Below, one piece after another: positions 24,501-51,439 of a stretch of 60,290 nucleotides of DNA. The position numbers and the translations under genes were made by a program. This DNA comes from Hydrolagus affinis (Eukaryota), in NCBI GenBank assembly GCA_012026655.1, contig JAAILG010001903.1, forward strand, positions 1 to 60,290, written 5' to 3'. A model generated the notes under the pieces. The model searched no databases and was not told where the DNA came from. It worked only from the letters and a program-made list of their open reading frames with translations. Positions within the stretch are counted from its first letter, which is position 1. Each line of letters starts with the position of its first letter.

Positions 24501-27500
24501 GAGCAAAACGAGTGCAAAGTTGATTTAAGGGCCCTAATATGAATGAAGAGAAACACAAGCCGTAATAGAATTGACAATATGTTTTTAAAATAAACATTAT
24601 GCTTATAAATACATAATAATATAATAATCCTTGCATTTGATACAACACTTTTCACATCTTATCAACGTCTCAAAGTGCAAAGCCAATTGCGCACAGCAGT
24701 GTCCCACAAACAGTCATGTATTGAAATTATTAATTTTATTTTTGTGGTTTTTTGGAGGACGGATTATTATTAGGCGTGTAGAATAAGAAAACTTGCCCAA
24801 GGTTTCGCCCTAATCTGCCTGGATTCGAACACAGTCACACGCTTGTAAGGCGAGTGCTCTAACCACTGAGCTACAGGAGTTCTTGAAATTTAAAATATTT
24901 TTGTAAAGTTACACTAAACATCCATTAGGTAAACTTGCTGAAATGCCACAAGTCATGAAATGAATTGATATTTAACTGTTAAAAGAATATAATCTCAATA
25001 AAAATAAATCTTAGAATCATAGAATCTTACGGGACAAAAGGAGGCCATTCAGCCCATCGAGTCTGTGCCTGCTCTTTGAAAAGAGCAATTCAATTGCACT
25101 GCCCAGCTCTCTCCCCATAACCGGCAAACCCACCCTCCCCAAATAAACGTCTACCTCTCTTTTAAAAGTTGTTATTAAATTGGCCTCCACCACCTTTTCA
25201 GGCAATGCATTCTTACAACAGGAAATAAATTGGGAAGAGAGATATCAAAACTGAATGTATGTATTATCACACCTAAGGTAGAGGTTTCTGAGGAGCAAGG
25301 CACAAAACATTTTGTGCTTTTCCAAAAGAAGCAAATGTTTACTGAAAATACATGATGTAATTAATTATGCAACCAAAATACCATTACAAATAATCTAGGT
25401 TAAGGCAGAATGCTGCACTACATTTCTCAAACCATAAATTGTGAAAATATAATTACCACCTACACATGTGGCAACAGTTTCACCCTATCAATATCTATTT
25501 ATTTAAATGAACAATTATGGAAATAAACTGTTAAAAATGTGTTTGTATATTCTGCAGGTTTACGCTAAACATGCTTATTAAATACATCTGGCACATTTTG
25601 AAAACAATTGAAGAATTACCTGTTAATGAGTGAGATTAACAACATAAACAACTCTCCGTATAAACTGGATGCAATCCCCTGTAGACACTCCATCGCTGCT
25701 ATTTTAGGTCCTATTAAAGCACACATACGTCACCATAGAACTTGAAAGTAGCACATTGTACTTAAAAAACGCAGAGATACACAAGGTTATTTGTTGTCAT
25801 GAACATACATGTTGCATAAAGGTGGATTCATTATTATTATTATTATTCATTTCTTTGTGCAATTTACAATACACACAAGATATATTCGATGTACAAGATG
25901 CATTCAACTGCTGTAAATCTGCATTTTTTTCAGCCACTTTTAAAATGAGCAGCTTTGATAAAAATGAATATTTTGGAGGTGTTTTACCTTGGCCATCTCC
26001 CTGTCCACTCTCATCTGATCCTTGCCGGATGGAAGGTGATCTTGGCAGCGTGCCCTTTAGCTGGTGCTTGAAAATAGAGGAGGACAGTTCTTCCAGGCTG
26101 CAACCTAACAGGTAGGCTGCTTTCTGCGCCCATTCATGTCTGGCAAACTGCCTTCTCCCAGCTTAAAACACAAGTTTAGAGAGCAGTTTATGAATACAAA
26201 TGCAGTGCAATGTACGAAAAATATTCTTAAGACACTGTTTAAGCATTATTCTCATATCACTACATTAACTTATGATAATCCCAAAATTGGATTTATAACT
26301 CTGGCTTTAAAGCTGAATGATAACCTAATACTTGGTTTGTACTGTACTTCTCATAGCAATTCACCGTGAAAAGCCCAGTAAACAGTGTTGAGAAGTGCTG
26401 TGTGAATGTAACTCAGACTGGAAGCTGGCTTCCATGATTACTTTAAGAGTGGCTTTTTGGGCACACCAATTTATACCTGTGAAATATAATTACAAATTGT
26501 GTGAATCAATTCACTTCCATTCAGTAATAGCCCGACTGGAAATTTGGGATCAATATTTAATGCTGCTAAAGAGATGGTTGCGTAACTGGTTCTTTAATAC
26601 AATTAAACCGCACAGAGCTTGTGCATTTAGTTGTCCTTGGACAGAATCTTCTTAAGCGCTGGACAACGTGATAAGGAATGGATAGTATAAAAGAGACTCT
26701 CCATTCCTCATTTACAGTGTTTCACTAACAGTAGCATAAACAAACAAAGCATCAGATATCAGCATTGAATTCCTAGTTCTGGCTAACATTTGCAATTAGG
26801 CTTTCCTTACAATTTGACAATTTTAAGCAAGCTGTTCAAAAGAAGGATAGAGGGAAAATTAGTCCTGCCCAAATCACATTCCCTTTTATCCACATAATCT
26901 CTTTGTCCAGAAATTTTCAACAAATATATAAATATATATATAAATATCTAGAATCTGTACTGTAAAGTCTAAACTGAGATTAAATTGTTACAAACTATTT
27001 TCTCCAAATCGATACTTGCATATATACTTACACATATATAAATGTACATAAAATATTGAATGGGAATTTTTTTTCCATAAGACACACAGAGGTAACTGGA
27101 TTTTCTGAAACTTTTCATCATATCTGCCTCATAACAGAGAATACTTTTCTCATGTTGGAAATGCCATTTTGTTTCATAGTTGTGAAATTAGGGGAAAAAA
27201 GCAATGTTGCAATTCTTTAAGTCAAACAATTAATGCCCTGTTTATATTGCTCGAACACGGAATGGTTGAACGTTATGGAACAAGAAACCTGACTTACTTT
27301 CCTTGCTTGTGATTAAGGAAGCTTCTATCTATTTGCAATTAAATATGTGGACTGCCACTAGCCAGTTTTGTATTACTAAAAAGCCTCCCACATGACTATC
27401 TGCCCAACAATAAATACTATTGGCCAGACATTAGCATGAACTTGCATCTTCAGGGTTGGTGGAGGAGGGAAAAAGATGGAAGGAACGTGAAAAGCAAGAC

Positions 27501-36500: not shown

Positions 36501-39500
36501 CACCATACATACCAGACTAAATAATAACAGAATATTGTATTGGTACTTATTGCTAAAACTACTCTCTTGCGCTTATCACCTTTTACTGATTGAAGTTTAC
36601 AGTCCAGCGATTCTTTTTTAAATGGAGGACGCCAAGCAGGTGAAAAAAACGGCAGCTCGATTTTAAAATCTTGCGACTTTACTAGAGGCAAGCAGATAGC
36701 CCTTGACTCTACTACCGGCAAACTGAAATACTGCACCTGCGCGACAATGTGGGTTATCGGCTAGCATTATCGGCTTGCCGCTAGTATGGCTTTAAAATCG
36801 TGCTCCGTTTTTTTCACCCACTTGGCGTGCTCCATTTTAAAAAGAATTACTGGACTATAAACCTCAACCTTGCAGCATCATGGCTTCAAGAGCAGCAGCT
36901 ACTAGTAAAGGTGAGAAGCGCAAGAGAGTAGTTTTAACAATAAGTACCAATACAACATTCTGTTATTATGTTATTATTTATGCATTTACAAATGCTTCAC
37001 TACTATTGTTCTGGATAAGTTCCGGTTTATCGAATGGGGACTCTTCTTTTGGCTTGCTGGTTATACGGAAGGGCCGGTTCATCGAGTCACAGATAAATGA
37101 GCTTCTACTGTATATAATATATACACACACATTATATATGCAACAAACTTTCAAACATAACGCAAGCAACCAGTCATTCAAAATTGGATCAATTGGTTTA
37201 AACAACAACTTTGATTTATATAGCGCCCTCCACGCCGGACGGCGTCTCAGAGCGTTTCACTGTGTAAGTATTCTGTCACATATGTATGTTTGCCAGTATG
37301 TAACAATTGCACACCAGAAAAAAACAATATTCAAGACATACCTTTTCAGAGTACATTGAAGGAGAGCTGAGCGGATTCACCACAACCATGTTTGGCCCTG
37401 CAAATGTGTGGATCAGGTTACCGCCGTAGCGTTGGCGTAATGTGTGCAGAACACTACACTCATTGAGATACAACAAGGAAGCAAGATCTTCCACTCGGTC
37501 ATAAGTTGGTGGATTTGCCTGTTTAAATACAACAATAATTACTAATGCAAACACAATACATTTGGAGGTGTATGGCGGTGTTGTACCATGATTCATTTGG
37601 CCAATCATTTCCTTGACTCTATGATAAGTCACAACACTTCTGATGTTAAAGCTCTTCGTTATTTGGAAAAGGAGTGTTAAATCTTTATTAACTAATCATT
37701 TAAATGACACAGTTTAGTCATTCTGACTACAATTAGTAAAAGATAGTAAATATTGTTCAACTTAAAAATACCTAGACAGCACAGCCATTTTGGAGTTTAG
37801 AGAGTACAGGCAAAAAGTAAAATGAGAAATAGGGAATTGATGACAAGAAGATTGTATATGGTTGGGGAAGCAGATTGTTTAATGGACAGAATAATCTCTT
37901 CTCGTTTCAAACATGGTGTTCTTGTACCCCAGAACTAATTTGAGACATGAAAAAAAAATACCTTCTCCACATCATCTTCATCCACATCCAGTATTTTTCC
38001 ATCATGGTCCAGTTTAATTTTCACTTTGCCTTCAGGGAGGCTGGATTCTTCAGCATCAGCCGTTAAGTGAGTACCTAGAGAAATAAAAGCCCCTTTAGAC
38101 TTAAAAGACACACCCAAAAAGATTGGACAATTTCTACAATTATACTAAATAAACTTCAGAGATATTAGCTTTGTGTAAATTAAGAATTGGTCTAAGATTA
38201 AAGTAGCTTAACAAACTAGTTACTAGATAATTTTAAAAAATGCATTCATCTGGCATGTTCTGAACATCATATTTGCAGAAATCGACAAGTTGAAAGACCG
38301 AGTGCAATCATAATCCACCCACTCTAACTATTGAATTTATAATTCTAAAATACAACATTAAAACACCTCATCAATTGTTAAGTCATCAGCAAGATGAGTG
38401 CCATCGAAATACTCAAAAATGGTCATCACAAGATATGAATAGTTGCCTTGACCTACAAGTCACCCTAATGTAGTGAAATCTCTGTTCAATTCTCTATTCA
38501 ATTTTCACACAAATGAGATGACGAATACAATTTAGGCACTGCAAGGAGGAAAATCTGACAAATATTCATATGGATGTGAAGGTGCAGGTCAATCATGTTC
38601 ACATGAATTGAGACTTCACAGTGTCAAGAGAATTTCTAGAAAGAGATTTACTAACATGAGAGATTCAATAAATCTATACATCTTGAATATTTTAGGCAAT
38701 AATATTTAGCTATTCGCCAAGTGTTTAGAAATAAAAGTATGCCGGGGGTGGTGGTGGTGGAACTTCTTTCATTGGCCTTGATAATCATTGTAACAGCTCT
38801 GTAGAAATGGAAAATGGTTTCAGATGAAGCTGTCAACATTGAATAAATCTGATACGAGACAGTTCAGGAAGGAAAATAAAATGATAACACAATTTGGAGC
38901 ATAGCTCCCCATATCCTAGACATGCTGGTTTTGCTGCTTGGAAAGCAGGTTATCCTTTTGACGTAGGAACATTGCTGAAAATACTATTTTTAAAATCTGG
39001 AACTTCATTCTTATTCATCCAACGATGGAGAGGAATTATTATCTGGATTACCTAATGAAAATCCATCCTTGTGGGCCAGCCACACCTTATCGGCTTCATA
39101 CCAGGCTTGCTCTACAGCAATCTGCTCCTCTGTCTTCAGCTAGAATTAGAAATTGGACGTCAGTTCGATTAAAATATCAGGCATGCATACATTCTTGTCA
39201 CTCATTATAGACATGCAGTCTCTCTCTCTTACTCACACACTTTAAATAAATGCTGTAGCAAATATAATTTAAGATTTTAGAACACAAAAACATTATATTT
39301 TTACAGCACACACGTCTACCACTAGAGAATTATCTAACACACATTAAGAGAATTACCTAATACACATTGTGAGCAAAGCTATTATAACAGCAGCAACAAA
39401 TTACATTTATTTCCTCCCACATCCCAAGCTACTGGTCAGTTGAGGATTTGCACCCAAGCTGGAAGTTGTTAAATTTAGGAGAATTTAGAAGGACAAAGTG

Positions 39501-42500
39501 GTTGGGGAGAAGAATGATTGAAGGCACAGTCAAAGAGGAAGGTCTTGAGACGTTCCTTCGAGGAGGCAAGGGGAGAGTGCAGGGACTCTGAAATGAAGTT
39601 CCAGAGAGAGAGTAGGGCAGATAGACTGAAAGTTCAACCAATAATGTTGGGTCAGGCAATGCAGGGGACGTAAAGCAAGTCAGTATCTCCCTGCTGAGAA
39701 GATCGAGAAGGTGGGTTGGTAAGGTTCAAGAAGGTTTTAGAGGTGAGTGGGGTAAAGAGACAGTGGAGGATATTTTTACCACATGACTGTACCCTTCCTG
39801 ATTCATTTTAGGTAGCAAAACCAGAAATAGTCTTTTGTTTACCTTATTTACCCAGTGCTACTGCTTTGTCAAATGCCACAAAAGCCACAGTAATTGCAGA
39901 TTACTGATTTTAGTTTGCTGCACACTATGCACAACAGTACATGACTGGTGCTGACAATGATAAACAAAATTTTAAACATTCACTTAATGAATTAGTGAGC
40001 CTTTAATACCACAGCACACTCTGCAAATCATAAAGAAAAGAGCCAAAACAAAGATTCAAAATTAATCGACTCCTTCAGCCAAAATTACAATGAGATGCAA
40101 TGATAATCTATGAACAATAGTGCAGGCATTAATATATAATGAGCTGTCCAAATAACCAAATCTTTAAATATTAATTTCGTTGAATGAACATTGATTACAT
40201 TAAATTATTCCATCCTACATCCGGAAAACAATGCAATTAATATGACTTCAGATTTGTTTTAGGCCCTACAAGCTAAAATTTTCTGAATATTTCACATTTT
40301 GGGTTTTGAATAAATAAATGCAATTATAGGACAATTTTAAAAATTCATGAAATATTAAATTATACTTTGTACATATGGCACTGATACTAAAAGGTTGATT
40401 TGACTCGAATTTTATGAGAAGGCTTCTGCCAAAACCTACTTATGCCAGCACTATTGAAAAAATTAAAAAGAATACTAAGTCAAACCTGTGATGACACATA
40501 TAAAACTCATTCTTTGATATAAATGATCTGAAAATAATTAACCTATAATCTTGTGGTTTACAAGCAAAGACGAACATGAATACCTAAGAAAATAACACAT
40601 GAGATGAAGGCACACTAAGAAAATAACACATGAGATGAAGCTGAGGACTGCACAATGTATAGGCACTTTACAAAAGCTATACTTCGCCAAACGGTGTTGA
40701 TGTGTAAATGCCAACCTGGGGCTCAGTAGAAGCAGATACTGAGGGAGACTGCAGCACAGACACTGGTACCTCTTCCACCTGATTCTGGAGAGCAGCAGCA
40801 TAGGCGCAGCAGTGCAAAGCAAACCAAGATTTAAAAATAACATTATTCTGTCTTTCACACATACTTTTCGCATTGCATTCTATTCAGTATTGTGGTTTTG
40901 TGACACACAATGAAACATAATCCTTATTTTTATTTGGGATTTATGTAGCCCCATCTTTTCCACCTAAACATAATTCTTAGATGTGCTTATAACAAAAGTC
41001 CTCAGTATTGAGACTCCTACATTAATGTGTAGCCCTCTTATTCCACTCTCTGCTTCTAAACTCATGTCTCAATCAAATTACAGTACTAGGAAGGGAAGAG
41101 CAAAATTGAAAGGTAACAGGAGAAATTTGGAGAAAATAAACAAAAAAGCTATAAATGTCAGTAAACACAAATATTTAACATTATTAGCCTTTTGAAAAGT
41201 TACCAAATCATTCTACAGTAATGTGCAACTCCTGATCAATGCTCGCAACAACTATCCAACATTTTTTCACAAGAAGTACACCTTGTTAAAAAAAAGTGCC
41301 ATTCTAAAATCTTCAGTACTTTCCTGAATATTGCTAGTGTTTTCAACTTGATAGTGGGAGTACTGTATTTATGTGCATTATTTTTGTTGAGTACTTTTCT
41401 ACTTACAGCTTTCAAATTTAAGTTACAATACTAATTAAACACAAGAAAGTGTAACATAAAATCACATTGGTGTCAAACTACAACTATAAACTAACCATAG
41501 TTTCAAATAAATACAATTTACATAATTAAATAAAAAGATGTGGCATGCATATCAATTTTACAGAAGCTAAATACTCATTGTATTAATAATCAGACTATTC
41601 ACTATTCTGTAGGTGGAAATATGGACGAGCTATTGTTCTTTAGAATGGAGCACTCGAACGTTCTCAAGGCTTGTAGTGCAGTGGAATCTGCCGTTTTGCA
41701 CACCTGTCTTTTTATGAATGCAGGGCGACCTCATTATAATATATCTCATTAAAGTTCTCTTATAAAGTGAGTTTCAAGTGAACCAGCAGTTACCAGAAGT
41801 GTGATACAGTTCCAGTTTCCGGCATAGACTAACTAGCTTTCTGCAGACATGCAGGAAACCCGCTAGTCTATCCCGGAAATGACTATCAGCAGCTTATAAT
41901 TCGGCGTCTAATTTTACATACCAAAACCCAGCTTTACAATGGGGTCACCCTGTACAATTAACATCACAATCACTAACCTTGTTTGAACTAAAATATAACT
42001 GCAAGAAAATTCTTAACTCTATGACAGTCTCTGTGAAGCTTAATGCCAAATTGTATTTTCTTTTAAAACAAATCCAATTTGGAGCGTTTCCCCCTTAAAT
42101 TCCAAGTCAATCCAGAATATATTTAATTCCCTTTAGGGAATTAAGGCATGGGAAAAGAGGCATTTACATCATATTTCACTCCAGGCAACACTTAAGTTGA
42201 AGTGTCCTAAAAACATTGGTGCATATCTTATATCTTAACATGTAATGTCATCACATTTCAAACAAAAACATCATTGCATCTTCTTGAGACCGCTGGCTGG
42301 CACCTTAGTTAAATCGACGATGGCTGAATTGAAGTTACTTTTTTTTCTTTTAGTGTGTTTATTACTTTAATTTGTTCATATGATTAATTTTCTCACAGGT
42401 GAACAAATAGAATCAGGATTGTAAGTGAAACATGAAAACAATGTTAATAAAAATAACTGATAGTATTACGCTGGAATGACACCACAGGTTTAGCAAATTG

Positions 42501-45500
42501 AGCTTCATTTTGCACGTTCTGGAATACGCCTAATTTACCTAATCAAGTTCTTTATGATTGGTGAATTTGAATAGACCAGCACACCTTTGACATTGTAGAA
42601 ATGTGTTAGGAGCAGAATACAGTACAAGCAAAGTAAGCAAAAGTGCTGTAGCGGAGATGGAAAGAAAAGGCACCACAGGATAGACATGAAGGCAGCCTTA
42701 CAGTCCAGCATGACACACGGGCACAGACACCAGCCCAGACGCAGACACCTGCCTGTGCGAGATCGTTGGAGCGAGCGTAGGAATCCTGAGAGGGAACAAG
42801 GCTCTGAGGAGATGGGACCACAGGTTCCGGCTGTGACAGCAATGCAAGGCGAAAGAAACAAGATACAAATGTAAAAATGAGAATGAAGAGAAAAAGATGA
42901 AGTTACTAAGCAAATCACAGCACGCATACAGAAATAATGAGAGCTAATGTAGTGAATTCTTGGTTACTTCACAAACTATTTTGTAGCACATCTTTATGAA
43001 CTGCTGTAGTCTTTATTATACAGTAGTATCCAAAATGACGTAGTTTGATTTTTTTCACTTCAACATATACCATGAACATAGATCTACATCTTCTGAAATC
43101 TCACACTATGCATCACAATTTTGCAAATTGATAGAAGTAGATTGCTGAAAGACTACAGAAGTTGTAAAGGCACAAATGATAAATTATTTACCTTTAAGAC
43201 AAAGAGGAATGCTAACATTGTGGTTGCAATAGCTTTTAACAGGTCACATTAAGCACAATGCAGAAGAATTATCATTACTTCATGAACATTTTTTTTATCT
43301 GTATTTATGATCACTTTTAACACAGCAATTTCAAGAAGCATATGTCAACATGAGCACCAATTCAAATTGAACATGAAATTAAACTCAAATATTTGAACAA
43401 AGCACTGCATTCATTCAAACAACCGGAAAACATTCAGAATGTGCTCAGCAAATACCAAGTCAAAGTTTATCAGCAGCTTCATCAAAACATGCCAGTGGTT
43501 TAAAACTCCTGCTGAACTCAAATAATTGGAACAAATACTATTTGTGCATTAAAAATAAATATGAAATATAGTTCCCACAGATTGGTGTATTTCACAAGGT
43601 TCAAAGGTATCAAAGCAAGTTCTAGAACACAATATAGTATTTAGTTGGTCTACTAATATAAATATTCAATGAATGTTCCAAGTTAAGGGTATTCAGAAGT
43701 GAATCAAGACATTAGTTACATATCAATTTGTACCTAGTAGTGTACATTGATGTGGGAAGTCTGTCAAACACGCTGACTGCTAAAATTACAATTAGTTTGA
43801 TAAGAAATGCCATTAAAGGTAAAAAAAAACAAGTTTGATAAGATGTCATTCGATCATGCTGTGATCTATGTGGTAATGGTGAAATATTCCAGAGGGGTTC
43901 CTAATCATAGTCCTCTGTTATCATACAGTTAGTATATACTATTAAAATTTTACAATATTATAACTGAATATTTTCAAAAAATATATTAAATAGCTCTGTG
44001 CAATACTGAATACCGCAATTATTAAAGCAAGGCAACAAGTGTTAAATATGAACTCCCAATAGCAAATTGTTCAGACAGGATTATTCAAGACACTCAAGTA
44101 TTGTTCAATAAAATGTTTGTTTTTACAGAAAGAAAGAAGATTCTCTCCAGTGTCATCTGAGCTTTGTCCGTTGGGGTCATTTGTTGAGATATCCTTTGGG
44201 CCTAAAGGTCACATGGCCAACAGTAAAATCAATTTCTTAGTTCATCAATCAATTGGAAACAACAACAGTCCATCTATCTAAAAAGAAATTCTCCATAGAA
44301 TTGTCAGCAAATTAAGGGTTAGCTGTCATTATATAAAATGTGGGTTTCTACAGCTTTCATACAGTATGAATTACTCTACAGCTTTCATATAGTATGCATC
44401 TACTTTTTTCTAGTATCTAGAAAAGATACTGCAAATCTAAAATCATACATATCATATATATACTTTGATTCATTTTCTGAAAACTGAAGCCCACTGGTTT
44501 CCTTTGCAGAATTTATACAATCCAAATTAGAAAGACCTTTGATCAAAACGCCTTGAAGATGATATAAATATTTGCCAAACTGTAAAAAAAACTAGATGTA
44601 CACATGAAAAATAATTCAGGATTTAAAAAAAGTCAAAGGTCTTGTTGCCAGATTAAAAGAAACATGCACAATCAGTCTGGTGCAAAAAGGACAGTCCAAA
44701 GAAGGTTACATTTCCATTGCCAGAAACTATGAAAATGCTCCCATGCTTTTCTCAAATTCCACTCATGAACCTTGATTGCAAATCACATGCATACTGTATA
44801 AGCATAACTATTCACTCAGGTTATAATTTGCTACACCTGATCTTTCCACAAAGTTCCACATGGCTGGCCTAGAAGTTTCATATACTATCTGTACGATTTT
44901 TTATTCTCCCTTCCTCCTCTCCACACACCGGCTACACACCTGCTTTGTAAAATCTGGTAGAGGTTCTTCAATAATAGATGAGGGCAACTTTTCCTGATCA
45001 GATATTTGTTGTTCATTGAGAAGTACCTTCTCCTTCAAATAGGTGAAAAGGGGGGTAAAACAGTGCACTTGTTTGTAAATACAAAGACCATAAATAAAGG
45101 TTAATGTCATGAAATGACATGCCTTGAATATCCCATATACCAACCATGGTTAATTCCTCAATGAGACTAGCGGAACAATTAAAAAAACCTCAATTTTTAT
45201 AATACTATATATTCATAGTTTCTTAGCACATCATGCATATTTTTAAAAAATCTTAACAAATTCTAGTCTAATGTGTAAACAGTTTCAAGTTAGGCCACAC
45301 AATTTTACAACTATGTTTCAGGATGACAAATCATTTCTCGTGCCCAAATAGTTAGTGAACCAAGCTAAGAATGGTGCAAGACACAGTTAGAATCAATATC
45401 CTTGCACAGTACGGTTCACTATTGCTCCATGCCACTCACTATTCCAAGCAGTCTTTTGTTCAAGTTTCCAAGCAGATTTTAAAAAGTGCATTGGGATACA

Positions 45501-48500
45501 ACACAAACTTCAGTAAAACTTTTATTTCTGTATCTCTGGTACACTGCACACATACTCTGGTTAGTTGGTACATGCTTTTCAGAAGAAATACCTCGCCTTT
45601 AACCAATTGTTGCTGTTGTAGTTTGTCTGGTTGTGTTTTGAATTGTTCCAAAGGAGGGGAAGCCGTTCTTTTGTTCAGCAAATCATCCGGACAAGTCTCG
45701 AAAACTTCCTCCTTCTTCTCTGGGACTCGCCGAGGTTTGTGATCTTTTGATTTTCCCCGGGTCATTAGGCTAGCCAACCCCACTGATATATCATCTTTAA
45801 CTGTAGTTTTCTTTCCTGGAGTTGCTGGTTCTATTTTTGTAGGAATAGGAACTTTTTTCCTAACATGTAGCGCAGTCTTGCTACTCTCCGTTTTAGATGG
45901 CCCTGTTGCTTCTAAAACTGGCTTGGTCTCTGCTTTGTTTTCCTTTGGTTGCTTTGTAGATTTTATCTCTTTCACCTTTCCCTTACTGTCTATTTCATCT
46001 AAAACCTTCTGCATCATTTTCTTAGCCGCTTTGGCCACTTTCTTATGAGGAACTCCCTGGTCCTCATGAACCAACTCAGTCTGGCTCTCAGTATGCATAT
46101 CTTGTTTTATTTTCTCTTGTATGTTAAACTTGCTTCCGAATTGTTCAGTTGAACTTCCATTTTCACCATTTATCTCCGGTTGCGGACTGCTGATCATCTG
46201 CTCCCTGTCATTCACCACATTAGTATTTGCACCATTTTCCGACTAAATTAACATACCGCAAAACAAAATGTTCCATAAATTATAATGGTAGAAAGAAAAG
46301 CTATAGCAGATGAATGATATGGCAGGTAGCAAGCACAATAAGCAAAAGGAATAAAACTAGAGTAAATACAAATGTGGTAACTAAGTATCAGTTAAGAACA
46401 GCTATATTTATATGATAAATCTAGTTTCGTCCCTAAACCTTGAATAATTAATACATAACAATGCTAATAATGTATAATGCAGCTTTATAATATAAATTAA
46501 ATTTAAAATGTATAGTATTAAAGTGCATTGATATCACACTTTAGCTATTTATCTATTAAGCAAAAACATATACAATATTAAGCAAAAATACTCTCAAATG
46601 CACAACAGCAGGAAACACCACCTAAAAGATTGGTTCCAGAGGTGTGGTTTCAAAATGACTGTACAGTAATTTCCCTCCCCATCCAACAAACAACTTCATA
46701 ATTAGAATGAGTGTTATGTCCATGCATTAATAAAAGTTAAAATTAATCTTCTCCATAAATTCTGGTTTGTTAGCAGCAATAACATTATGAAAATAAAGAC
46801 CTAATTCCAATATTCCACTTTTGTTAACTGTTCAGCAATATTACATATGCACTGAACACAAATAAAACTAAAACTACAAACCAAAGAAGTATGTTTTTGT
46901 TTTTCCTTATTTTCATACATGCACATGAACAGACCAGTGCAAGTTGCTTTTTAAATATTTAGGGCCTTTTCAATTCTACTATAATATACTACCAGCTGTT
47001 TTTCTTCCCAATCAGCAGAACGTTCACAAAATATTTTGTAAAATATCATTGATTGTGGAATATTTAAATGAGGATTCTGTTCCCACCCTAAATGGCTTGC
47101 AGTATTTAATCCAATAGGAATGTGCAAATAGAAAGGAAAAATAAACGTGTTACTCCACCATCTAAATACAGTACAACCAACCTCCACTTTAAAATGTCCA
47201 TTTAAAAATATCGGGTTATATAATGGTAAGCTTTCTTTCTAGCTTATGTATATCTTGCAAAGCAAAATACCTGCAGCAAACTGCAGTGTCTTAATCTTCA
47301 TTACATCTGCTAATTTCCTGATTTTTTGTGTGCAAAATATTATTTATCATGCAGCTATTGCATGCCTGAAACTGAAGCCTATACTTTGATTAGGTTTTGT
47401 TCACACACTACTGAATAAAGTCCCACACAGAAAGACTCAAAGAACAGCGTAGTTAATATGCTGCACTGCAGCAAGCCTCATCTGCCTTCTAGCCCACCAG
47501 TTATGCCGTTCCTTCCTATAAAGAAACAACTTTCTTTTCAGCAATCCATATTGCAAGTCATACTGGAGCTCTCAACAAGACCTAATTCAAGCTCCCAGCT
47601 TTTTCAATTCAAAGCACAGTAGAAAAAAAATATTAAATAGGCTAACCTGAGCACATCTTCTAAGATCCAGTCGTTTATAGGAGGATCTTTGGAAACCTTC
47701 CATGCCCAAATGAAATCAACACATCTACTGCATCTGCTGATGCAGTATCAATCACAATCTCCAGTAAGAGAAGGCCAACCACAAGGTTGCTGTGGCATTA
47801 AAAAAGCAAGTGCAGAAATGCAAATTTTCCATTTTATACTTCTTGATTAATGGAAAACTATAACACTTCCAATGCAAGTTTGGTTTCTATTGAACATTCC
47901 CTCGATGGGTCAGATATCTTTAATGGTCATTAAACTAATTAGGTGACCTGACAAAGTATATTTTCTGCAGTAAATACGCAAATATAAAGTCATCAGCATT
48001 CCTGTAAAATGTATGATTTTCAGAAAACTGACTAAGTATTAAATGCAACTGCATTTGACAGTCATTTTGAATCTAACACAGACAGGATAATATAAATACA
48101 ATTTTTAAAAACTGGATCTAAAAGCAAATTAGCACTGAACACAAATGTGAGTTACTGATTCTAAAAACATGACAACCATTTTAAGAAACTTACAGATTGT
48201 TCACAATTTTGCTGTTGGTCTTCATCAAGAGATTCCACTTGGACAACAGGCAATGACTTTTTCTTATCCAAAGGTTTTTCCTCCTTAACCTAATTAGTTA
48301 TAGGATGAGGTTGCAATATGACAGTCTGAATTTGAAGATACCATGCACAGTGCCCATATCACTTCAGTTAAAACTGGACACCTCCAGCAAAATTGTATTT
48401 ATAATACTGTAATAAGGTATATAAAGCTAATACGGTTCTAAATCTCTTAGTATAAATGCATCAATAATAATCCCAATAATCCCAATTAATACATTTGTGA

Positions 48501-49286
48501 GAGTTAATTATCCATATTTTTTTTATTAATTTATTATCAGACTATACATTATGCATAATATACTCTACCCATTTTAAACAATGTTAGTTAAATTTGAATA
48601 AAATGTAATTAGCAGTGCAGTTTGTAACATCTACAGAATAAAAGCCAAACTAAACAATTTCGGGCAGAAGTAGAACATCATCCATCCCACCTACTCATCC
48701 AATTTTTCACAATGTTCCATCAATATACTATATCTAGCAATAAATATAATAGCCCAGAGTCCTATGACAGGAACTTGTCTAGTTCCTTTTTGAAACCCTT
48801 TGTTGATTTAAATGGAATTGGATGAGATAATGAAGTATTTATGGTTTGTATCTACAATAAATCCCTTGAGGCTTCTCAATTTCTTGCTGCCTGGTTGAGC
48901 TTCAACAGTATTACTTGCTATTATGAAAACATAGAAGTATAACACAAGAATAGATAAAACAAAACATGAACAGTTTTCGCCTTTACCACAGGCACCCAGC
49001 AGTAGGAGATTCAACACTAAATAAACACTAAATTCCCAGAACTGGAAGCATTTTATATAATCAATTTTCCTTGGCAGCAAGTGTATAAAATTTGCAAATA
49101 AAAGCTTACTTTGTTTTTCGCCCACCCAATTGTTGAGGAGGTAGTAAGACTCCTCATTACTACAACCCAACCTAAGAACCACCATGTCAAATACGATTTA
49201 TTGCTAATTGCAAATGTAAATGATTCATATTTTAAAACAGGACTTCCCTTTTTCTCCCAAAATGCAAACCGTGATGAGAAAGCCAT
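436..49286 (-). CDS. MYO18A: Unconventional myosin-18A, multi-exon, partial (3' end and alpha/PDZ exon outside the window); span includes the candidate gamma-type first exons
   Basis: Spliced translation follows the human MYO18A sequence as I recall it, co-linearly (KTEEQIA..., [62 protein letters not shown]). Exon phases are consistent throughout. Confidence 0.97.
1092..1206 (-). CDS. MYO18A: MYO18A exon, coiled coil ([38 protein letters not shown])
   Basis: ttcag| and |gttagt, 115 nt, phase 0 to 1. Confidence 0.95.
1535..1654 (-). CDS. MYO18A: MYO18A exon, coiled coil ([40 protein letters not shown])
   Basis: cacag| and |gtggga, 120 nt, phase 0-0. Confidence 0.95.
2798..2887 (-). CDS. MYO18A: MYO18A exon, start of coiled coil ([30 protein letters not shown])
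   Basis: catcag| and |gtaagt, 90 nt, phase 0-0. Confidence 0.95.
3465..3755 (+). mobile_element. L2-clade LINE 3' fragment
   Basis: Translates [14 protein letters not shown] (hallmark of the L2 ORF2 C-terminus); tail gtgctgtccaaatgcaagttgtt. Confidence 0.7.
4788..4995. repeat. Tandem duplication, two diverged units of about 100 bp
   Basis: acattttcagatttacata...acaaacaagataactca...ttcttcaac..attattaat occurs twice. Confidence 0.75.
5069..5212 (-). CDS. MYO18A: MYO18A exon, neck/hook ([48 protein letters not shown])
   Basis: ttcag| and |gtaagt, 144 nt; WxWWKLF hook motif; inside ORF 5027..5245. Confidence 0.96.
5560..5688 (-). CDS. MYO18A: MYO18A exon, converter end plus IQ motif ([43 protein letters not shown])
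   Basis: tttatag| and |gtaaaa, 129 nt; FQxxxRGxxxR IQ motif. Confidence 0.96.
5776..5867 (+). mobile_element. SINE 3' tail fragment
   Basis: gtgaagcgctttgagatgttg...gcactatatcaaatacaaggattatt. Confidence 0.75.
6275..6592 (-). mobile_element. tRNA-derived SINE with L2-type 3' tail, full length
   Basis: Head has A box TAGCTCAGTGG and B box GTTCAAATCC; tail ...tatatcaaatgtaaggattatta; near-identical head at 24.8 kb. Confidence 0.85.
8618..8852 (-). mobile_element. L2-clade LINE 3' end
   Basis: aacaacttggatttatgtagcgccctccacgcc...; shared with copies at 35.5, 37.2 and 57.8 kb. Confidence 0.75.
9590..9900 (+). mobile_element. LF-SINE-like ancient element
   Basis: ccagttcccagtgggcatgagttcacatcacaaaa and aattgacacgaagctggcagtctca resemble the recalled LF-SINE core; boundaries approximate. 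Confidence 0.55.
13778..13843 (-). CDS. MYO18A: MYO18A exon, converter ([22 protein letters not shown])
   Basis: ttttag| and |gtaagg, 66 nt, phase 0-0. Confidence 0.95.
14714..14723. promoter_or_regulatory. CArG box (SRF site)
   Basis: CCTTATATGG, perfect CC(A/T)6GG; motif only. Confidence 0.35.
16308..17018. mobile_element. Non-autonomous Tigger/pogo-like (Tc1/mariner superfamily) MITE with long internal palindrome, copy 1
   Basis: TIRs CAGTAGAAGCCCATTTATCCG ... CGGATAAACGGGCTTTTACTG; TA on the left flank; CpG-rich relative to surroundings; no transposase ORF. Confidence 0.85.
17440..17549 (-). CDS. MYO18A: MYO18A exon ([37 protein letters not shown])
   Basis: ctatag| and |gtgagt, 110 nt, phase 1 to 0. 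Confidence 0.96.
17745..17872 (+). mobile_element. CR1 LINE 3' UTR fragment
   Basis: gatgggccgaatgacttccttcggtgctatataattctatgac. Confidence 0.7.
18062..18141. promoter_or_regulatory. Promoter-like motif cluster (ETS, RFX X-box, CCAAT)
   Basis: CACTTCCTG (18062), GTCTCCTAGCAAC (18115), ATTGG (18137) in a locally GC-richer non-repeat patch. Confidence 0.35.
18290..18715. mobile_element. Two SINE 3' fragments tail-to-tail (about 18290-18413 on +, about 18570-18715 on -)
   Basis: ctatatcaaatgcaagcattatt and its reverse complement aataattcttgcatttgatatag. Confidence 0.7.
19765..20170 (-). mobile_element. Deu-domain SINE (SacSINE1/AmnSINE1-like), degraded
   Basis: Minus strand reads ctctgagtcagaaagttgtgagttcaag (head), then gtcggaggggctgttcttcagatgagacgtttaaaactgagg...aagatcacatggcactgttct (resembles the Deu core as recalled), then L2-type tail. 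Confidence 0.65.
20289..20529 (-). CDS. MYO18A: MYO18A exon, motor ([21 protein letters not shown]...[20 protein letters not shown])
   Basis: gacag| and |gtaggt, 241 nt, phase 0 to 1. Confidence 0.95.
20913..21099 (-). CDS. MYO18A: MYO18A exon, motor ([62 protein letters not shown])
   Basis: cctag| and |gttagt, 187 nt, phase 2 to 0. Confidence 0.96.
21180..21325 (-). mobile_element. SINE 3' fragment
   Basis: ataataataatccttgcatttgatgtagcgccttatcac...ccaattgcgcacagcagtgtc. Confidence 0.75.
21412..21571 (-). CDS. MYO18A: MYO18A exon, motor ([54 protein letters not shown])
   Basis: ttacag| and |gtaaga, 160 nt, phase 1 to 2. Confidence 0.96.
21777..21918 (-). CDS. MYO18A: MYO18A exon, motor ([47 protein letters not shown])
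   Basis: ggtag| and |gtaaag, 142 nt, phase 0 to 1. Confidence 0.96.
22455..22548 (+). mobile_element. CR1 LINE 3' UTR fragment
   Basis: gatgggccgaatagcctccttctgtgctgtataattctatga. Confidence 0.7.
23394..23506. repeat. Direct repeat aaattcatttgattgaaacctgt (two copies) bracketing a tatactgat minisatellite
   Basis: Read directly from the sequence. Confidence 0.8.
23846..23932 (-). CDS. MYO18A: MYO18A exon, motor ([29 protein letters not shown])
   Basis: ctctag| and |gtaaga, 87 nt, phase 0-0. Confidence 0.94.
24341..24533 (-). CDS. MYO18A: MYO18A exon, switch-2 and relay ([24 protein letters not shown]...[31 protein letters not shown])
   Basis: attag| and |gtattc, 193 nt, phase 2 to 0. Confidence 0.96.
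24615..24882 (-). mobile_element. tRNA-derived SINE, same family, internal deletion
   Basis: Same A/B-box head (TAGCTCAGTGG, GTTCGAATCC) and tail atcaaatgcaaggattattat. Confidence 0.85.
25012..25212 (-). mobile_element. CR1 LINE 3' end
   Basis: [25 protein letters not shown] (CR1 ORF2 C-terminus) followed by gatgggctgaatggcctcc...attctatgattcta tail. Confidence 0.8.
25620..25710 (-). CDS. MYO18A: MYO18A exon, motor ([31 protein letters not shown])
   Basis: aatag| and |gtaatt, 91 nt, phase 1 to 2. Confidence 0.94.
25988..26161 (-). CDS. MYO18A: MYO18A exon, motor ([58 protein letters not shown])
   Basis: ttttaag| (AAG acceptor) and |gtaaaa, 174 nt, phase 1-1. Confidence 0.95.
27298..27324 (-). 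CDS. MYO18A: Candidate 27-nt cassette microexon (EASLITSKE)
   Basis: ttgcaaatagatag| acceptor, AAA|gtaagt consensus donor; phase 1-1 and open in frame; no homology recalled. Confidence 0.35.
27867..27878 (-). CDS. MYO18A: 12-nt microexon (DGDE), positional equivalent of human EAAE
   Basis: aacacag|ATGGTGATGAAG|gtaaaa; phase 1-1; fills the 4-residue gap between GATK and AGR(K/R)QF seen in the human protein. Confidence 0.8.
28225..28278 (-). CDS. MYO18A: Candidate 54/51-nt cassette exon ([18 protein letters not shown])
   Basis: tttag|CAG tandem acceptor, CTG|gtaatt donor, phase 1-1 and open; weak pyrimidine tract. Confidence 0.25.
29262..29360 (-). mobile_element. Degraded SINE 3' fragment
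   Basis: ataataatccgtgcatttgatac...catctcaaagcatttcac. Confidence 0.55.
29897..29917 (-). CDS. MYO18A: Candidate 21-nt cassette microexon (VPSVLML)
   Basis: ttgcaacaaatctcag|TTCCTTCTGTTCTTATGCTGG|gtaagc; phase 1-1 and open in frame. Confidence 0.5.
30091..30438 (+). mobile_element. tRNA-derived SINE, older related subfamily
   Basis: tcctgtagcttattggttagagc head; tail atcaaatgcaaggattat. Confidence 0.75.
30660..30850 (+). mobile_element. Degraded CR1 ORF2 C-terminal fragment
   Basis: [17 protein letters not shown]...FKGEL resembles CR1 RxFFxxRVVxxWNxLP...FKxxL. Confidence 0.5.
33170..33478 (+). mobile_element. Degraded L2-like 3' fragment
   Basis: Pyrimidine-rich body ending aagtgctttgggatgccttc...gtataaaatt. 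Confidence 0.45.
33872..33917. repeat. Perfect 23-bp tandem duplication
   Basis: catatgcatcaaaactaaaatta, two copies. Confidence 0.9.
34116..34260 (-). CDS. MYO18A: MYO18A exon, motor ([48 protein letters not shown])
   Basis: ctccag| and |gtactg, 145 nt, phase 0 to 1. Confidence 0.96.
35183..35246 (-). CDS. MYO18A: MYO18A exon, motor ([22 protein letters not shown])
   Basis: ttacag| and |gtatta, 64 nt, phase 2 to 0. Confidence 0.95.
35348..35448 (-). CDS. MYO18A: MYO18A exon, motor ([34 protein letters not shown])
   Basis: aatag| and |gtactg, 101 nt, phase 0 to 2. Confidence 0.96.
35488..35620 (-). mobile_element. L2-clade LINE 3' end
   Basis: acaacaacatgcgcttacatagaaccctccacgc... GC-rich body similar to the 8.6-kb copy. 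Confidence 0.6.
35774..35916 (-). CDS. MYO18A: MYO18A exon, switch-1 ([48 protein letters not shown])
   Basis: tcacag| and |gtgaga, 143 nt, phase 1 to 0. Confidence 0.96.
36069..36279 (-). CDS. MYO18A: MYO18A exon, P-loop ([12 protein letters not shown]...[38 protein letters not shown])
   Basis: ttatag| and |gtaggt, 211 nt, phase 0 to 1. Confidence 0.97.
36377..37110. mobile_element. Same MITE family, copy 2, inverted relative to copy 1
   Basis: TA|CAGTAAAAGCCTGTTTATCCG ... AGATAAATGAGCTTCTACTG|TA; reverse complement aligns along copy 1. Confidence 0.88.
37200..37262 (-). mobile_element. L2-clade LINE 3' terminus
   Basis: aacaacaactttgatttatatagcgccctccacgccggacggcgtctcagagcg. Confidence 0.7.
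37342..37518 (-). CDS. MYO18A: MYO18A exon, motor start ([59 protein letters not shown])
   Basis: aacag| and |gtatgt, 177 nt, phase 0-0. Confidence 0.97.
37962..38074 (-). CDS. MYO18A: MYO18A exon, SH3-like ([38 protein letters not shown])
   Basis: ctctag| and |gtattt, 113 nt, phase 1 to 0. Confidence 0.96.
39052..39139 (-). CDS. MYO18A: MYO18A first common exon ([29 protein letters not shown])
   Basis: ttctag| and |gtaatc, 88 nt, phase 0 to 1; matches human AKTEEQIAAEEAW...KVWLVHRDGFSL. Confidence 0.96.
39470..39780 (-). mobile_element. Degraded L2-like fragment
   Basis: Purine-rich; gaaggtcttgagac...gaagttccagag resembles the other L2 copies. Confidence 0.45.
40584..40640. repeat. 26-bp direct repeat, period 31
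   Basis: ctaagaaaataacacatgagatgaag, two copies. Confidence 0.9.
40716..40784 (-). CDS. MYO18A: Alternative N-terminal cassette exon ([23 protein letters not shown]); a second acceptor 6 nt inside gives 63 nt
   Basis: ctctccag| and CAG|gttggc, 69 nt, phase 0-0; GC-richer island in AT-rich intron. Confidence 0.7.
41721..41952. mobile_element. Small old MITE with central hairpin
   Basis: Imperfect TIRs CAGGGCGACCTCATTATAA ... TTACAATGGGGTCACCCTG followed by TA; central 30-bp stem at 41816-41879. Confidence 0.65.
42753..42830 (-). CDS. MYO18A: Alternative N-terminal cassette exon ([26 protein letters not shown]), GC donor
   Basis: gtcacag| acceptor with pyrimidine tract; phase 0-0 (78 nt) only with the CAG|gcaggt donor. 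Confidence 0.6.
44127..44201 (-). CDS. MYO18A: Gamma-type N-terminal exon ([25 protein letters not shown])
   Basis: ctttag| and |gtaaaa, 75 nt, phase 0-0, open. Confidence 0.65.
44940..45032 (-). CDS. MYO18A: Gamma-type N-terminal exon ([31 protein letters not shown])
   Basis: Pyrimidine tract plus tttgaag| acceptor, CAG|gtgtgt donor, 93 nt, phase 0-0. Confidence 0.7.
45592..46242 (-). CDS. MYO18A: Large gamma-type N-terminal exon, 217 aa, K/E/P/Q-rich, probably disordered ([16 protein letters not shown]...[22 protein letters not shown]...QQQLVKGE)
   Basis: Longest ORF in the window (45460..46218); aatttag| and GAG|gtattt, 651 nt, phase 0-0. Confidence 0.85.
48194..48289 (-). CDS. MYO18A: Gamma-type N-terminal exon 2 ([32 protein letters not shown])
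   Basis: ctaattag| and TCT|gtaagt, 96 nt, phase 0-0; VKEE aligns with the MYO18B IREE that follows MAISSRLALWEQK. Confidence 0.75.
49248..49286 (-). CDS. MYO18A: Gamma-type first coding exon ([13 protein letters not shown]); may extend to 49110
   Basis: ATG in gcagcATGG Kozak context; peptide resembles the MYO18B start MAISSRLALWEQK; donor is non-canonical (see findings). Confidence 0.75.
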
Positions 49287-50677
49287 GCTGCTGTCATGAA
49301 CTGGGAATTGGTTTTATGAAAAGATGGCAATTACAGAACAGTTGTTGGACCGGAACCCAAGTTCTTCCTAGCAACTGAAATTGGTGCAGCACATTGCCCT
49401 GGATTATGACCATGAAGTGGGACCTGGACACACGTGTGATGGTCACTGCAAGTACAGAGAAAGTGGAAAGCAGAAAGTCACAGTAAAGGTCACTTACAAT
49501 TATAAAGCTACAGCAACTATTTCAGCTAGCTGCTGGGTTGAATTTTACCAACAAAACTTTTAAAAAGGTGCAATGGGATGCAGAATTATCTGACTGGGAT
49601 GAAAAAAAACACAGAATCACAAAATATTTCACTAATTGTTGGTTTCTCAACTTGATCCATTCTGATAATGGTACCTTTCCTGATAACCAACTTTTGGAAC
49701 TACAGTAATTTATTGCCATTTGCAACTTAAATAGAAGGGTTAAAAAAATTCAGATTGAGAACATTTGATCTTACAAAATCCTAATTTGCATAACAATAGA
49801 TGTATTGCAATATAAAAAGTTACATTTTGTTGCCTTAAATGTAGGTAATCTATCTAACAGAGGACATACAACTTTTCACATACTAAATACTGGCATTTGG
49901 TATTAGAGAATCTGATAGCTCATGAGTTTGGCACATAGAACGAACTTTCAAAACACCTTATGACTCAGTCTATATATTTTTCTGCTGGATGACAACTTGC
50001 ATGATATACTATACACATGAACCAATAAATCAATTGAAAATTGCGAAAATAGGAAACAAACCCTTCTTTGCAAAGTTGGTCCACTATATGCTAGAGTAGT
50101 ATAAAATAAAATGGAGTCATTCTGTGTTTTACTTAAAGTGCACAGTGTTCTTTGAAGGGATTTTGTTTAAGCTAAATATGGACACTCCTGGAGTTGCTGT
50201 GGTCATCTGTTTGAATTAGACTCAGTGACTGGGTAAGTGGACAAAGTTAATCATCAACAGGATTATGAATTACAGACACAAGAGGAAATGATTAAACTTT
50301 ATATCAGAATCTGGATTATATACTATGATAGAGTGTCAAAAATCTGAAGAGTTAGTTAAATAACTGGATAAACAGGTGAGCTGAGAAAAATTGACGGCCA
50401 GTAACAGACTCTCCCACCATTTGTATTTATAAAGATTTGTAAAACTAGAGATTAATATCTAGGGCCCAAAGTATAAAAAAGTGATATACTTATGTTGATA
50501 ATTTACACCACATATACATATCTCAAACCATTTTTGTTAAAGGAATGAACTTCCAAAATATTTTGATGCAGTTTCAGTAAATGGATTGTACAGTGAAATT
50601 TTTTTTGAAGTACCATTGTACACATCACAGAAGATGCAAGATTATCAAAATTACAAATTAAAATTTGGTGATAATAC

Positions 50678-50815: not shown

Positions 50816-51439
50816 CATCTGAAATTGATGATACACGCATACCTAAATATTATTATATTTAAAAGAGTGGGAAAAAGTAATAGATAAGGAAAAATATTGC
50901 TTCACATCTTAGCAAACCAAAACCAAATGGTTAGAAATTTGAGATGACAATATGAAATGGTTTTCTAGGTTCTGATCCATTCTTGTAAGATTTCATTTTC
51001 ACAATTTTCGTATTATTTCTAAAGAAACCAACTTTAGTCAAATATTTTGGATCCTGCTATTATAAAAGATTACTTTCTAATTGTAAAAGGTCTGCTTGGA
51101 TTACCTCTGCCTTCAATATAGTTGAATATAACAAAGCTAAATCAACAGAAGTGTATTAAATTTCACCGATTATCAGGATATAGTTTATGCAGCAATATAA
51201 TCGAGATATGTTCTTGAAACATTTTCTTTATTAAACAATGTGACATAAAAACTCAATCTTAATGATCCTAAAAAGAGCCATTCAGTAAATACAAACAGAA
51301 AGTGGTTCTTCCCTTCATTTTGTCCAAAATATAAACTACAGAACATTCTACCCCCAAAAAGGCATCTACAAAGCAATGAGGACTCGACCATAATTGCAAA
51401 ATATACATAAAGCTGTAGATTCCCACATTTTGCTAACTT

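What the first reader, a model, noticed from the sequence alone, without database searches (positions are those of the whole stretch)
40716..49286. Complete MYO18B-like (gamma-type) N-terminal exon chain inside a MYO18A intron
Seen: seven exons of 39, 96, 651, 93, 75, 78 and 69 nt, all phase 0, join without a stop to the first common exon (LKTEEQ) and give a 367-aa K/E/P/Q/S-rich extension starting [17 protein letters not shown]. Known: human MYO18B begins MAISSRLALWEQK-IREE, and mammals have a PDZ-less, muscle-specific Myo18A-gamma isoform with its own N-terminus. Inference: the sarcomeric N-terminus predates the 18A/18B duplication and survives here, apparently in a cartilaginous fish, as an internal-promoter isoform. 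The SSR(F/L)A(F/L)WE motif, [14 protein letters not shown] and [15 protein letters not shown] are candidate short binding motifs in a disordered tail.
Basis: partly seen in the sequence, partly recalled or inferred. Interest (0 to 1): 0.75.

Follow-up and report, generated by a model that had tools for sequence, protein, structure and literature searches.

The report
Chimaera muscle myosin-18A, odd splice donor
These seven exons encode an alternative front end of a chimaera's myosin-18A, likely the counterpart of the known mammalian muscle form; its first exon is predicted to end at a rule-breaking splice site in the same place as one in human myosin-18B, and likely encodes a short actin-gripping motif.

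Summary
The exons are real: seven open, phase-0 pieces giving 367 residues in a chimaera MYO18A gene. Paddlefish RefSeq models start with the same 17 residues and have matching downstream exons. Corrections: exons 4-7 are optional cassettes in paddlefish models, exon 6 has a longer canonical form, and exon 7 looks mostly skipped in the one RNA sample. No junction read was seen, an in-frame GT donor competes, and binding could not be modelled. Verdict: a variant of a known isoform with two testable new features.

The parts
49248..49286 (-). Gamma exon 1, coding part (13 codons from ATG)
   Evidence: same first 13 residues as paddlefish P0006/P0009 and 10 further isoform models
49254..49280 (-). 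Codons 3-11 (FSSRFAFWE): candidate Lifeact-type short F-actin-binding motif
   Evidence: pattern fit to PMC13364712; only match in the 367 aa; binding untested
49242..49250 (-). Non-canonical 5' splice site AAG|GGAAGT (cut between 49248 and 49247), 8 of 9 consensus positions
   Evidence: same codon position as the human MYO18B GA-AG intron; use is inferred
49104..49112 (-). Rival in-frame canonical donor AAA|GTAAGC (cut after 49110); would add 46 residues
49287..49445 (-). Candidate 5' untranslated part of exon 1; an acceptor-like signal precedes 49445 (others at 49593/49589)
   Evidence: RNA depth in bin 49137-49797; boundary not shown
48194..48289 (-). Gamma exon 2 (32 aa)
   Evidence: AG/GT; first four residues continue the paddlefish match; low RNA depth
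45592..46242 (-). Gamma exon 3 (217 aa), predicted mostly disordered
   Evidence: RNA depth about 5x in X2
45985..46047 (-). Conserved basic amphipathic helix (exon 3 residues 66-86), diverged in this chimaera
45760..45792 (-). Conserved [11 protein letters not shown] helix (exon 3 residues 151-161)
44940..45032 (-). Exon 4 (31 aa), cassette in paddlefish models, same length there
44127..44201 (-). Exon 5 (25 aa; [15 protein letters not shown] motif), cassette; its homologue also occurs in a PDZ-bearing teleost model (P0071)
42702..42830 (-). Exon 6 with two donors: short form to 42753 (GC), long form to 42702 (GT); shared with the PDZ isoform
40716..40784 (-). Exon 7 (23 aa), cassette; apparently mostly skipped in the RNA sample laid
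   Evidence: depth 1/0/0 at 40749 against 7/9/14 at 39128
39052..39139 (-). First exon common to all isoforms (start of the SH3-like/motor region)

Best explanation
This is the alternative, PDZ-less N-terminus of a chimaera MYO18A gene, likely the orthologue of the muscle isoform Myo18A-gamma, likely transcribed from an internal promoter, with its first intron predicted to be cut at a non-GT donor and its first 11 residues predicted to grip actin filaments. Shown: gene identity, open exons, exon-by-exon match to ray-finned fish models, stranded RNA over the exons. Inferred steps: (1) a promoter at or upstream of about 49.4-49.8 kb starts the transcript; (2) exon 1 is spliced at AAG|GGAAGT, a weak U2-type donor whose non-GT character goes back to the gene that gave MYO18A and MYO18B; (3) exons 1-3 form the core, exons 4-7 are cassettes, likely under RBFOX-type control, that set the linker between about 262 and 384 residues, and exons 5-7 can also enter the PDZ isoform; (4) the ATPase-dead myosin co-assembles with thick filaments by its coiled coil while residues 3-11 form a Lifeact-like helix in the actin subdomain 1/3 cleft, tethering thick to thin filaments through a disordered linker carrying two further short helices with unknown partners. 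My odds: gamma orthologue 0.9, GG donor used 0.7, actin-binding motif 0.55.
For: Gene: a motor exon is 100% identical to PDZ-bearing Callorhinchus MYO18A P0002 and none of the named hits among the 120 listed (of 423) is called MYO18B; 23 segments match P0002 at 91% overall, ray-finned MYO18A at 70-75%; P0124 joins the PDZ exon to this exon 6 and then to the common exon. Conservation: 12 paddlefish models begin with the same 17 residues and include blocks 4-7 in 10 different combinations; motifs recur in teleost models and in 4 HMMER hits of exon 3. Expression: in runs X2 and X4 (one sample, close relative) stranded depth in the gene's sense covers the bins of exons 1-6, while 4 of 5 repeat-free bins upstream of 49.8 kb are zero in all three RNA runs; X3 shows common exons and the exon 6 bin but not exons 1-5. 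Donor: the only perfect MAG|GGRAGT on the minus strand of the window; human MYO18B GA-AG intron, 846 reads, heart and skeletal muscle among 6 tissues, lies after c.39 by arithmetic from rs133885 = p.E44G at chr22:26159289. Motif: SFM defined as V-x-x-L-x-x-x-F-E, with listed members bearing R at P4, W at P8 or F at P1 (SORBS1, TJP1, CALD1, PPP1R9A); MYO18B's N-terminus is reported necessary and sufficient for actin-fibre localisation (review). TGCATG: 11 of 31 minus-strand copies fall in the 10.1-kb unit, p 0.009, 1 on the other strand. Dead-motor signatures GRTGSGKT and DTPGFQ are in the window.
Against: No junction read was displayed: the joints table was filled by repeats, 289 rows not shown. 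Whether the related genome X1 has the same G at the donor's +2 is unknown (40 of 460 difference rows shown). An in-frame canonical donor with an open frame lies 138 nt downstream. Exon 2 depth in X2 (about 1.2x) is lower than exons 1 and 3 (about 4-5x). No human MYO18A junction is in the non-canonical list, so the mammalian gamma donor may be canonical or was missed. The polyproline helix described for mouse gamma is absent (longest proline run 2). No mammalian gamma or MYO18B sequence could be fetched, so orthology to mouse gamma rests on position, ray-finned models and the review. The motif pattern was chosen after seeing the peptide and hits 1893 of 10000 shuffles somewhere (71 within the first 13 residues); P4 is R, not the consensus L, and the hydrophobic moment of the first windows is low (0.07-0.33). 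Tissue of the RNA is unknown.
Confidence: 0.7

Rival explanations
1. Same gamma isoform, but the GG is an assembly error or a lineage-specific change, and exon 1 is really spliced at a GT/GC here or at the canonical donor at 49110 (413-residue extension).
For: In-frame AAA|GTAAGC (7 of 9) with a 59-codon open frame; single assembly; a little sense depth in the bin holding 49110-49136; non-canonical sites often sit beside alternative sites.
Against: Paddlefish and teleost models run straight from residue 13 into exon 2 with no insert; human MYO18B has a non-GT donor at the same codon, unlikely to coincide with a random error; that bin also holds a repeat (X1 depth 121 against about 60).
Confidence: 0.2
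2. The conserved N-terminal 17 residues bind something other than actin (myosin rod, titin, MyBP-C or obscurin) and target the protein to the A-band; the motif fit is chance.
For: Gamma and 18B localise to A-bands; the permissive pattern is common; conservation extends beyond the nine motif positions; the SFM screen did not list this site.
Against: MYO18B's N-terminus alone goes to actin stress fibres; the match sits in the one stretch shared by both paralogues; the screen extended hits by 20 residues each side, which may have handicapped a site at residue 3 (inference).
Confidence: 0.3
3. The gamma unit is a decaying relic in this lineage, silenced by loss of the exon 1 GT.
For: GG donor, GC donor, weak exon 5 donor (4 of 9), divergent basic helix.
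Against: All frames open over 1101 nt; 17 of 17 residues identical to paddlefish; sense RNA over the exons in a close relative.
Confidence: 0.05
4. The gene is MYO18B itself and these are its ordinary 5' exons.
For: No PDZ exon in the window; non-GT donor as in human MYO18B; no MYO18B sequence was available for a tree.
Against: Common exons match a PDZ-bearing MYO18A at 91% and a Logan protein with PDZ likewise; P0124 splices PDZ exon to exon 6 of this chain.
Confidence: 0.03
5. The 18A-gamma/18B likeness arose by convergence or later gene conversion, not by descent from the pre-duplication gene.
For: The shared stretch is short (19 residues) and a binding motif can arise de novo; three partial invertebrate MYO18 transcripts show no gamma motif.
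Against: Same start, same 13-codon exon end and a non-GT donor in both; those invertebrate transcripts are 5'-incomplete and lie outside the vertebrate duplication.
Confidence: 0.05

Closest known systems
Mouse Myo18A-gamma (Horsthemke 2019, seen only through reviews PMC11112018, PMC7900500 and passages of PMC11285346)
   Same: MYO18A gene, PDZ-less alternative N-terminal extension, internal start, conserved extreme N-terminus, dead-motor P-loop and switch-2 changes
   Different: No polyproline run here (P 8%, longest run 2); K/E-rich composition; serine-rich C-terminus lies outside the window; sequences could not be aligned because the mouse protein was not obtained
Paddlefish and teleost RefSeq MYO18A-like isoforms (P0006, P0009, P0125-P0136, P0062, P0077)
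   Same: First 17 residues identical to paddlefish; same order of motifs; four phase-0 cassettes of 31/22/12/24 residues against 31/25/26 or 43/23 here
   Different: About 26% identity overall; teleost linkers are proline-repeat rich; the basic helix is V/K/R-rich there and alanine/methionine-substituted here; they are unnamed automatic models
Human MYO18B
   Same: Similar first 19 residues to gamma (review, mouse); intron after codon 13 with a non-GT donor
   Different: GA there, GG here; the rest of the extension has low similarity by the review; single promoter type, no PDZ isoform described
[quoted passage not shown]
   Same: Hydrophobic P1, aromatic P8, Glu P9, in a disordered terminal region; closest listed entry SORBS1 691-699
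   Different: F at P1 and R at P4 are minority choices; this site is not in their Supplementary Table 3, where MYO18A appears only at 1685-1693 and MYO18B not at all
U2-like non-canonical 5' splice sites (PMC4176328: FGFR GA-AG, CPSF3 GG-AG)
   Same: Near-perfect consensus apart from position +2
   Different: Here the homologous intron in two paralogues would carry two different non-GT bases; no read support yet for the chimaera site

Membership tests
Myo18A-gamma isoform | Encoded by the MYO18A gene | tested here: met
Myo18A-gamma isoform | Alternative N-terminal extension without PDZ, in frame with the first common exon | tested here: met
   (no Pfam family below E 1 in exon 3); splicing itself not shown
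Myo18A-gamma isoform | Extreme N-terminus similar to MYO18B | tested here: inconclusive
Myo18A-gamma isoform | Polyproline II helix in the extension (mouse) | tested here: not met
   longest proline run 2, P 8.2%; hence filed as a variant, gamma-type, not as the mouse form
Myo18A-gamma isoform | Serine-rich alternative C-terminus | not testable with these tools
   window ends near residue 1380 of 2000; no genome held
Myo18A-gamma isoform | Internal transcription start, striated-muscle expression | tested here: inconclusive
   depth begins in bin 49137-49797, present in 2 of 3 runs of one sample of unknown tissue; no start sites called
Myo18A-gamma isoform | A-band localisation, negligible ATPase | not testable with these tools
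   motor motifs match the dead-motor pattern
MYO18B | Separate gene with no PDZ isoform | tested here: not met
   exons shared with PDZ-bearing proteins
SFM (Lifeact/ITPKA-type F-actin motif) | P1 hydrophobic, P8 aromatic, P9 Glu | tested here: met
   F3, W10, E11
SFM (Lifeact/ITPKA-type F-actin motif) | P4 Leu | tested here: inconclusive
   R6 here, not the consensus; R at P4 occurs in listed members such as SORBS1, TJP1, OPHN1
SFM (Lifeact/ITPKA-type F-actin motif) | Predicted complex with actin (ipTM over 0.6, ITPKA-like pose) or measured binding | not testable with these tools
U2-like non-canonical 5' splice site | U2 consensus apart from the dinucleotide | tested here: met
   8 of 9 positions
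U2-like non-canonical 5' splice site | Junction reads, and not a polymorphism or assembly error | tested here: inconclusive
   neither the joint nor position 49246 was among the rows shown

The most novel reading that the evidence does not exclude
The pre-duplication class-18 myosin gene had a 13-codon muscle exon that encodes a Lifeact-type F-actin grip and ends at a non-GT donor. Both paralogues kept the grip and kept the donor non-canonical (GA in human MYO18B, GG in chimaera MYO18A-gamma), so selection has acted on weakness of the site rather than on its base: a splicing gate on the actin tether of sarcomeric myosin-18.
Probability: 0.35. Interest if true: 0.78.

Novelty: new variant of a known kind. 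Interest (0 to 1): 0.5.

Why it matters
Reviews describe the gamma and 18B N-termini as of unknown function although both proteins are essential for mouse sarcomeres and MYO18B mutations cause human myopathy. Deep conservation narrows 367 residues to four short motifs, and the fit of the first to a defined F-actin motif gives a cheap test of how these ATPase-dead myosins tether thick to thin filaments. A non-GT donor retained at one position in two old paralogues would be a rare natural case for studying non-canonical splicing, would explain why gene predictors drop this exon (inference from P0028, P0065, P0140, which lack it), and would matter for reading variants at the human MYO18B c.39 boundary. 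The bare existence of the isoform in a cartilaginous fish only dates it to the jawed-vertebrate ancestor.

Tried and rejected
No own genome held. Exon 3 search among proteins of 381-2000 aa: 0 of 1549 candidates (full-length gamma and 18B are longer). P0006 residues 1-40: 2 of 10 candidates, both paddlefish, uninformative for sharks or tetrapods. Atlas: no usable hit. Pfam and PDB: nothing for exon 3 or the N-terminal peptide. Run search listed no RNA holder; the RNA runs were additions and were laid. Exon 1 DNA pattern in metagenome contigs: 0; related-loci scan gave 7 loci, none with gamma exons. Complex prediction with actin was not available, so no verdict. RNA folding round the donor: z 0.85, no special structure. 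Rfam: only two tRNA-like hits elsewhere. Bacterial promoter scan irrelevant; MEF2/CArG/TATA scans gave no convincing cluster next to exon 1, nearest MEF2-like site 50853-50862. [quoted passage not shown] No beta-type first exon found. Earlier findings of the scan: none. Horsthemke 2019 and Gurung 2017 were not held.

Full report
OBSERVATION. The seven pieces are present on the minus strand at 49286-49248, 48289-48194, 46242-45592, 45032-44940, 44201-44127, 42830-42753 and 40784-40716; each is stop-free in phase 0 and together they give 367 residues ahead of the common exon 39139-39052. Five donors are GT.

HOST GENE. A 70-residue motor exon is 100% identical to Callorhinchus milii Myosin XVIIIA P0002, which carries a PDZ domain; 120 of 423 hits were listed and none of the named ones is called MYO18B. 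P0002 maps to 23 segments from 39145 down to 424; summed identity is 91-92% to chimaera proteins and 70-75% to three ray-finned ones (segment edges lower these figures). So the window is from a chimaera close to, but not identical with, the C. milii records. The PDZ region has no match in the window; that the unit lies in the intron after the PDZ exon is inferred from P0001/P0002 (PDZ exon joined to the common exon) and P0124, which joins PDZ exon, a 43-residue exon 6 and the common exon. No tree against MYO18B could be built, as no MYO18B sequence was obtained.

CONSERVATION. Twelve paddlefish RefSeq models begin with the same 17 residues as exons 1-2 predict; Diretmus and Stegastes models differ slightly. 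Comparing the paddlefish isoforms resolves four optional blocks of 31, 22, 12 and 24 residues, used in 10 combinations among the 12 models; blocks 6 and 7 also occur in 2 of 4 PDZ-bearing paddlefish models and block 5 in a PDZ-bearing teleost model. Window exons 5 and 7 match blocks 5 and 7 (0 of 2000 shuffles), exon 4 matches block 4 in length and weakly in sequence (25 of 2000), exon 6 does not match significantly. Exon 6 has a second, canonical donor at 42702; this long form equals P0124 at 41 of 43 residues and its end resembles Stegastes and Synaphobranchus models, while a 26-residue short form exists in Diretmus. These are automatic gene models, not experiments. HMMER with exon 3 against 1.84 billion proteins gave 4 hits at E up to 0.001: three unnamed Logan proteins and a sturgeon model.

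EXPRESSION. One lay of four runs. X1 covers introns evenly in long contigs with about 1.5% differences: DNA of a close relative. X2-X4 are one RNA sample. In X2 and X4, first-mate-plus depth (the gene's sense in most stranded libraries) covers the bins of exons 1-6; X3 shows the common exons and the exon 6 bin but not exons 1-5. Of 5 repeat-free bins upstream of 49.8 kb, 4 are zero in all three runs and one has 0.03. Rough depth per exon in X2: exon 1 about 3.9 (if 198 nt), exon 2 1.2, exon 3 4.9, exons 4-6 6-10, common exons 8-11. At 40749 in exon 7 depth is 1, 0 and 0 against 7, 9 and 14 at 39128, so exon 7 looks mostly skipped. The joints shown were all from repeats (289 rows hidden) and only 40 of 460 difference rows were shown, so neither splicing nor the donor base was checked. 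Numbers are small and the tissue is unknown.

WHAT IS IN PRINT. PMC11112018 (parts 1-4 of 6 read; figure not visible) describes Myo18A-gamma and states that its first 19 residues are highly similar to Myo18B while the rest of the termini are not. PMC7900500 (section 4, passages) calls the gamma extension of unknown function except a polyproline helix. PMC11285346 (passages) notes an internal start and heart-tube profile. The primary paper was not held.

THE DONOR. AAG|GGAAGT matches 8 of 9 consensus positions and is the only such GG site on the minus strand of the window (0.55 expected somewhere by composition). The supplement of PMC4176328 (file 3 searched and part 31 read; file 1 unreadable; main text passages) lists a human MYO18B GA-AG intron, chr22:26157098-26159197, U2-like, 846 reads in six tissues including heart and skeletal muscle. 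The next exon starts at 26159198. rs133885 is G/A at 26159289 (PMC11109224 and PMC8633773, passages and one supplement row) and is p.E44G (PMC3591001, passages), hence c.131; 131 minus 91 gives c.40 as the exon's first base, assuming no intron within those 92 bases. The human intron therefore follows codon 13, exactly where the window's GG donor lies. Two different non-GT donors at one homologous position are best explained by descent from the pre-duplication gene (inference). Against: an in-frame GT donor at 49110 with an open frame, no junction reads, and no MYO18A row in the human list. A search for MYO18B with GA-AG found 0 papers; the library lacks most subscription papers, including those most likely to mention it.

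THE MOTIF. PMC13364712 (abstract, sections 6, 7, 8, 16, Supplementary Table 3 in full, source data searched but cut; preprint passages) defines V-x-x-L-x-x-x-F-E from Lifeact and ITPKA, with P1 and P8 essential. Residues 3-11 here give F, R, W, E at P1, P4, P8, P9; listed members show each of these choices, the nearest being SORBS1 691-699. Their table has no MYO18B entry and MYO18A only at 1685-1693; the 9 myosin-18 rows in the searchable source data do not include this site. A permissive pattern, chosen after seeing the peptide, matches only at residue 3 of the 367; shuffles match somewhere in 1893 of 10000 and within the first 13 residues in 71. The review reports that MYO18B's N-terminus is needed and sufficient for actin-fibre localisation.

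MECHANISM. Shown: exons, gene, conservation, sense RNA. Inferred: an internal promoter; GG splicing; a core of exons 1-3 plus cassettes tuning linker length (262-384 residues), likely under RBFOX-type control (TGCATG 11 of 31 copies in 17% of the strand, p 0.009; motif meaning recalled). From the reviews: dead motor, thick-filament co-assembly, A-band location; the window carries the same P-loop and switch-2 changes. Predicted: the N-terminal helix tethers to thin filaments.

VERDICT. A gamma-type MYO18A unit in a chimaera: a variant of a known isoform, not a new system. Interest 0.5, carried by the shared non-GT donor and the actin-motif lead, both directly testable and both unproven here.

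Noticed in passing
window 39140-49247, minus strand: TGCATG (RBFOX word, recalled) is enriched in the gamma unit, 11 of 31 copies, and strand-biased.
   Followed up: partly
window 42676-42753: The stretch around and about 25 nt beyond the long exon 6 donor matches a mis-predicted sturgeon N-terminus (P0005) at 58% in a non-coding frame, suggesting nucleotide-level conservation of the alternative donor region.
   Followed up: partly
window 41866-42526: Sense RNA depth 0.74 in X2 in a bin with no predicted exon; unexplained, perhaps pre-mRNA or a further exon.
   Followed up: no
window 49445 and 49589-49593: Acceptor-like signals upstream of the ATG; the ATG exon may be internal with a non-coding first exon further up. 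A phase-0 join from the PDZ exon to 49445 would meet a stop at once.
   Followed up: partly
window 45985-46047: [quoted passage not shown]
   Followed up: partly
P0001, P0008 and other PDZ-type N-termini: The permissive F-actin pattern also matches once, near the start of the alpha extension.
   Followed up: no
window 6522-6586, 24818-24877; about 39.4-39.8, 50.7, 52.9, 54.4-54.7 kb: tRNA-like Rfam hits and very high-copy repeats, likely SINEs.
   Followed up: no
window about 13775-13807: A small common exon missed by model P0002 lies alone in the 11.7-kb gap between 17440 and 5688.
   Followed up: partly
L001-L003: Three 5'-incomplete invertebrate-like myosin-18 transcripts have long N-terminal extensions with no gamma motif.
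   Followed up: partly
L008-L051: 44 contigs in prokaryote assemblies carry eukaryotic-type actin. Many are short and animal-like (likely contamination), but several sit in long contigs or a complete Microcoleus chromosome (L010, L011, L022) or are divergent with N-terminal extensions (L041, L042), possibly genuine bacterial actins.
   Followed up: no
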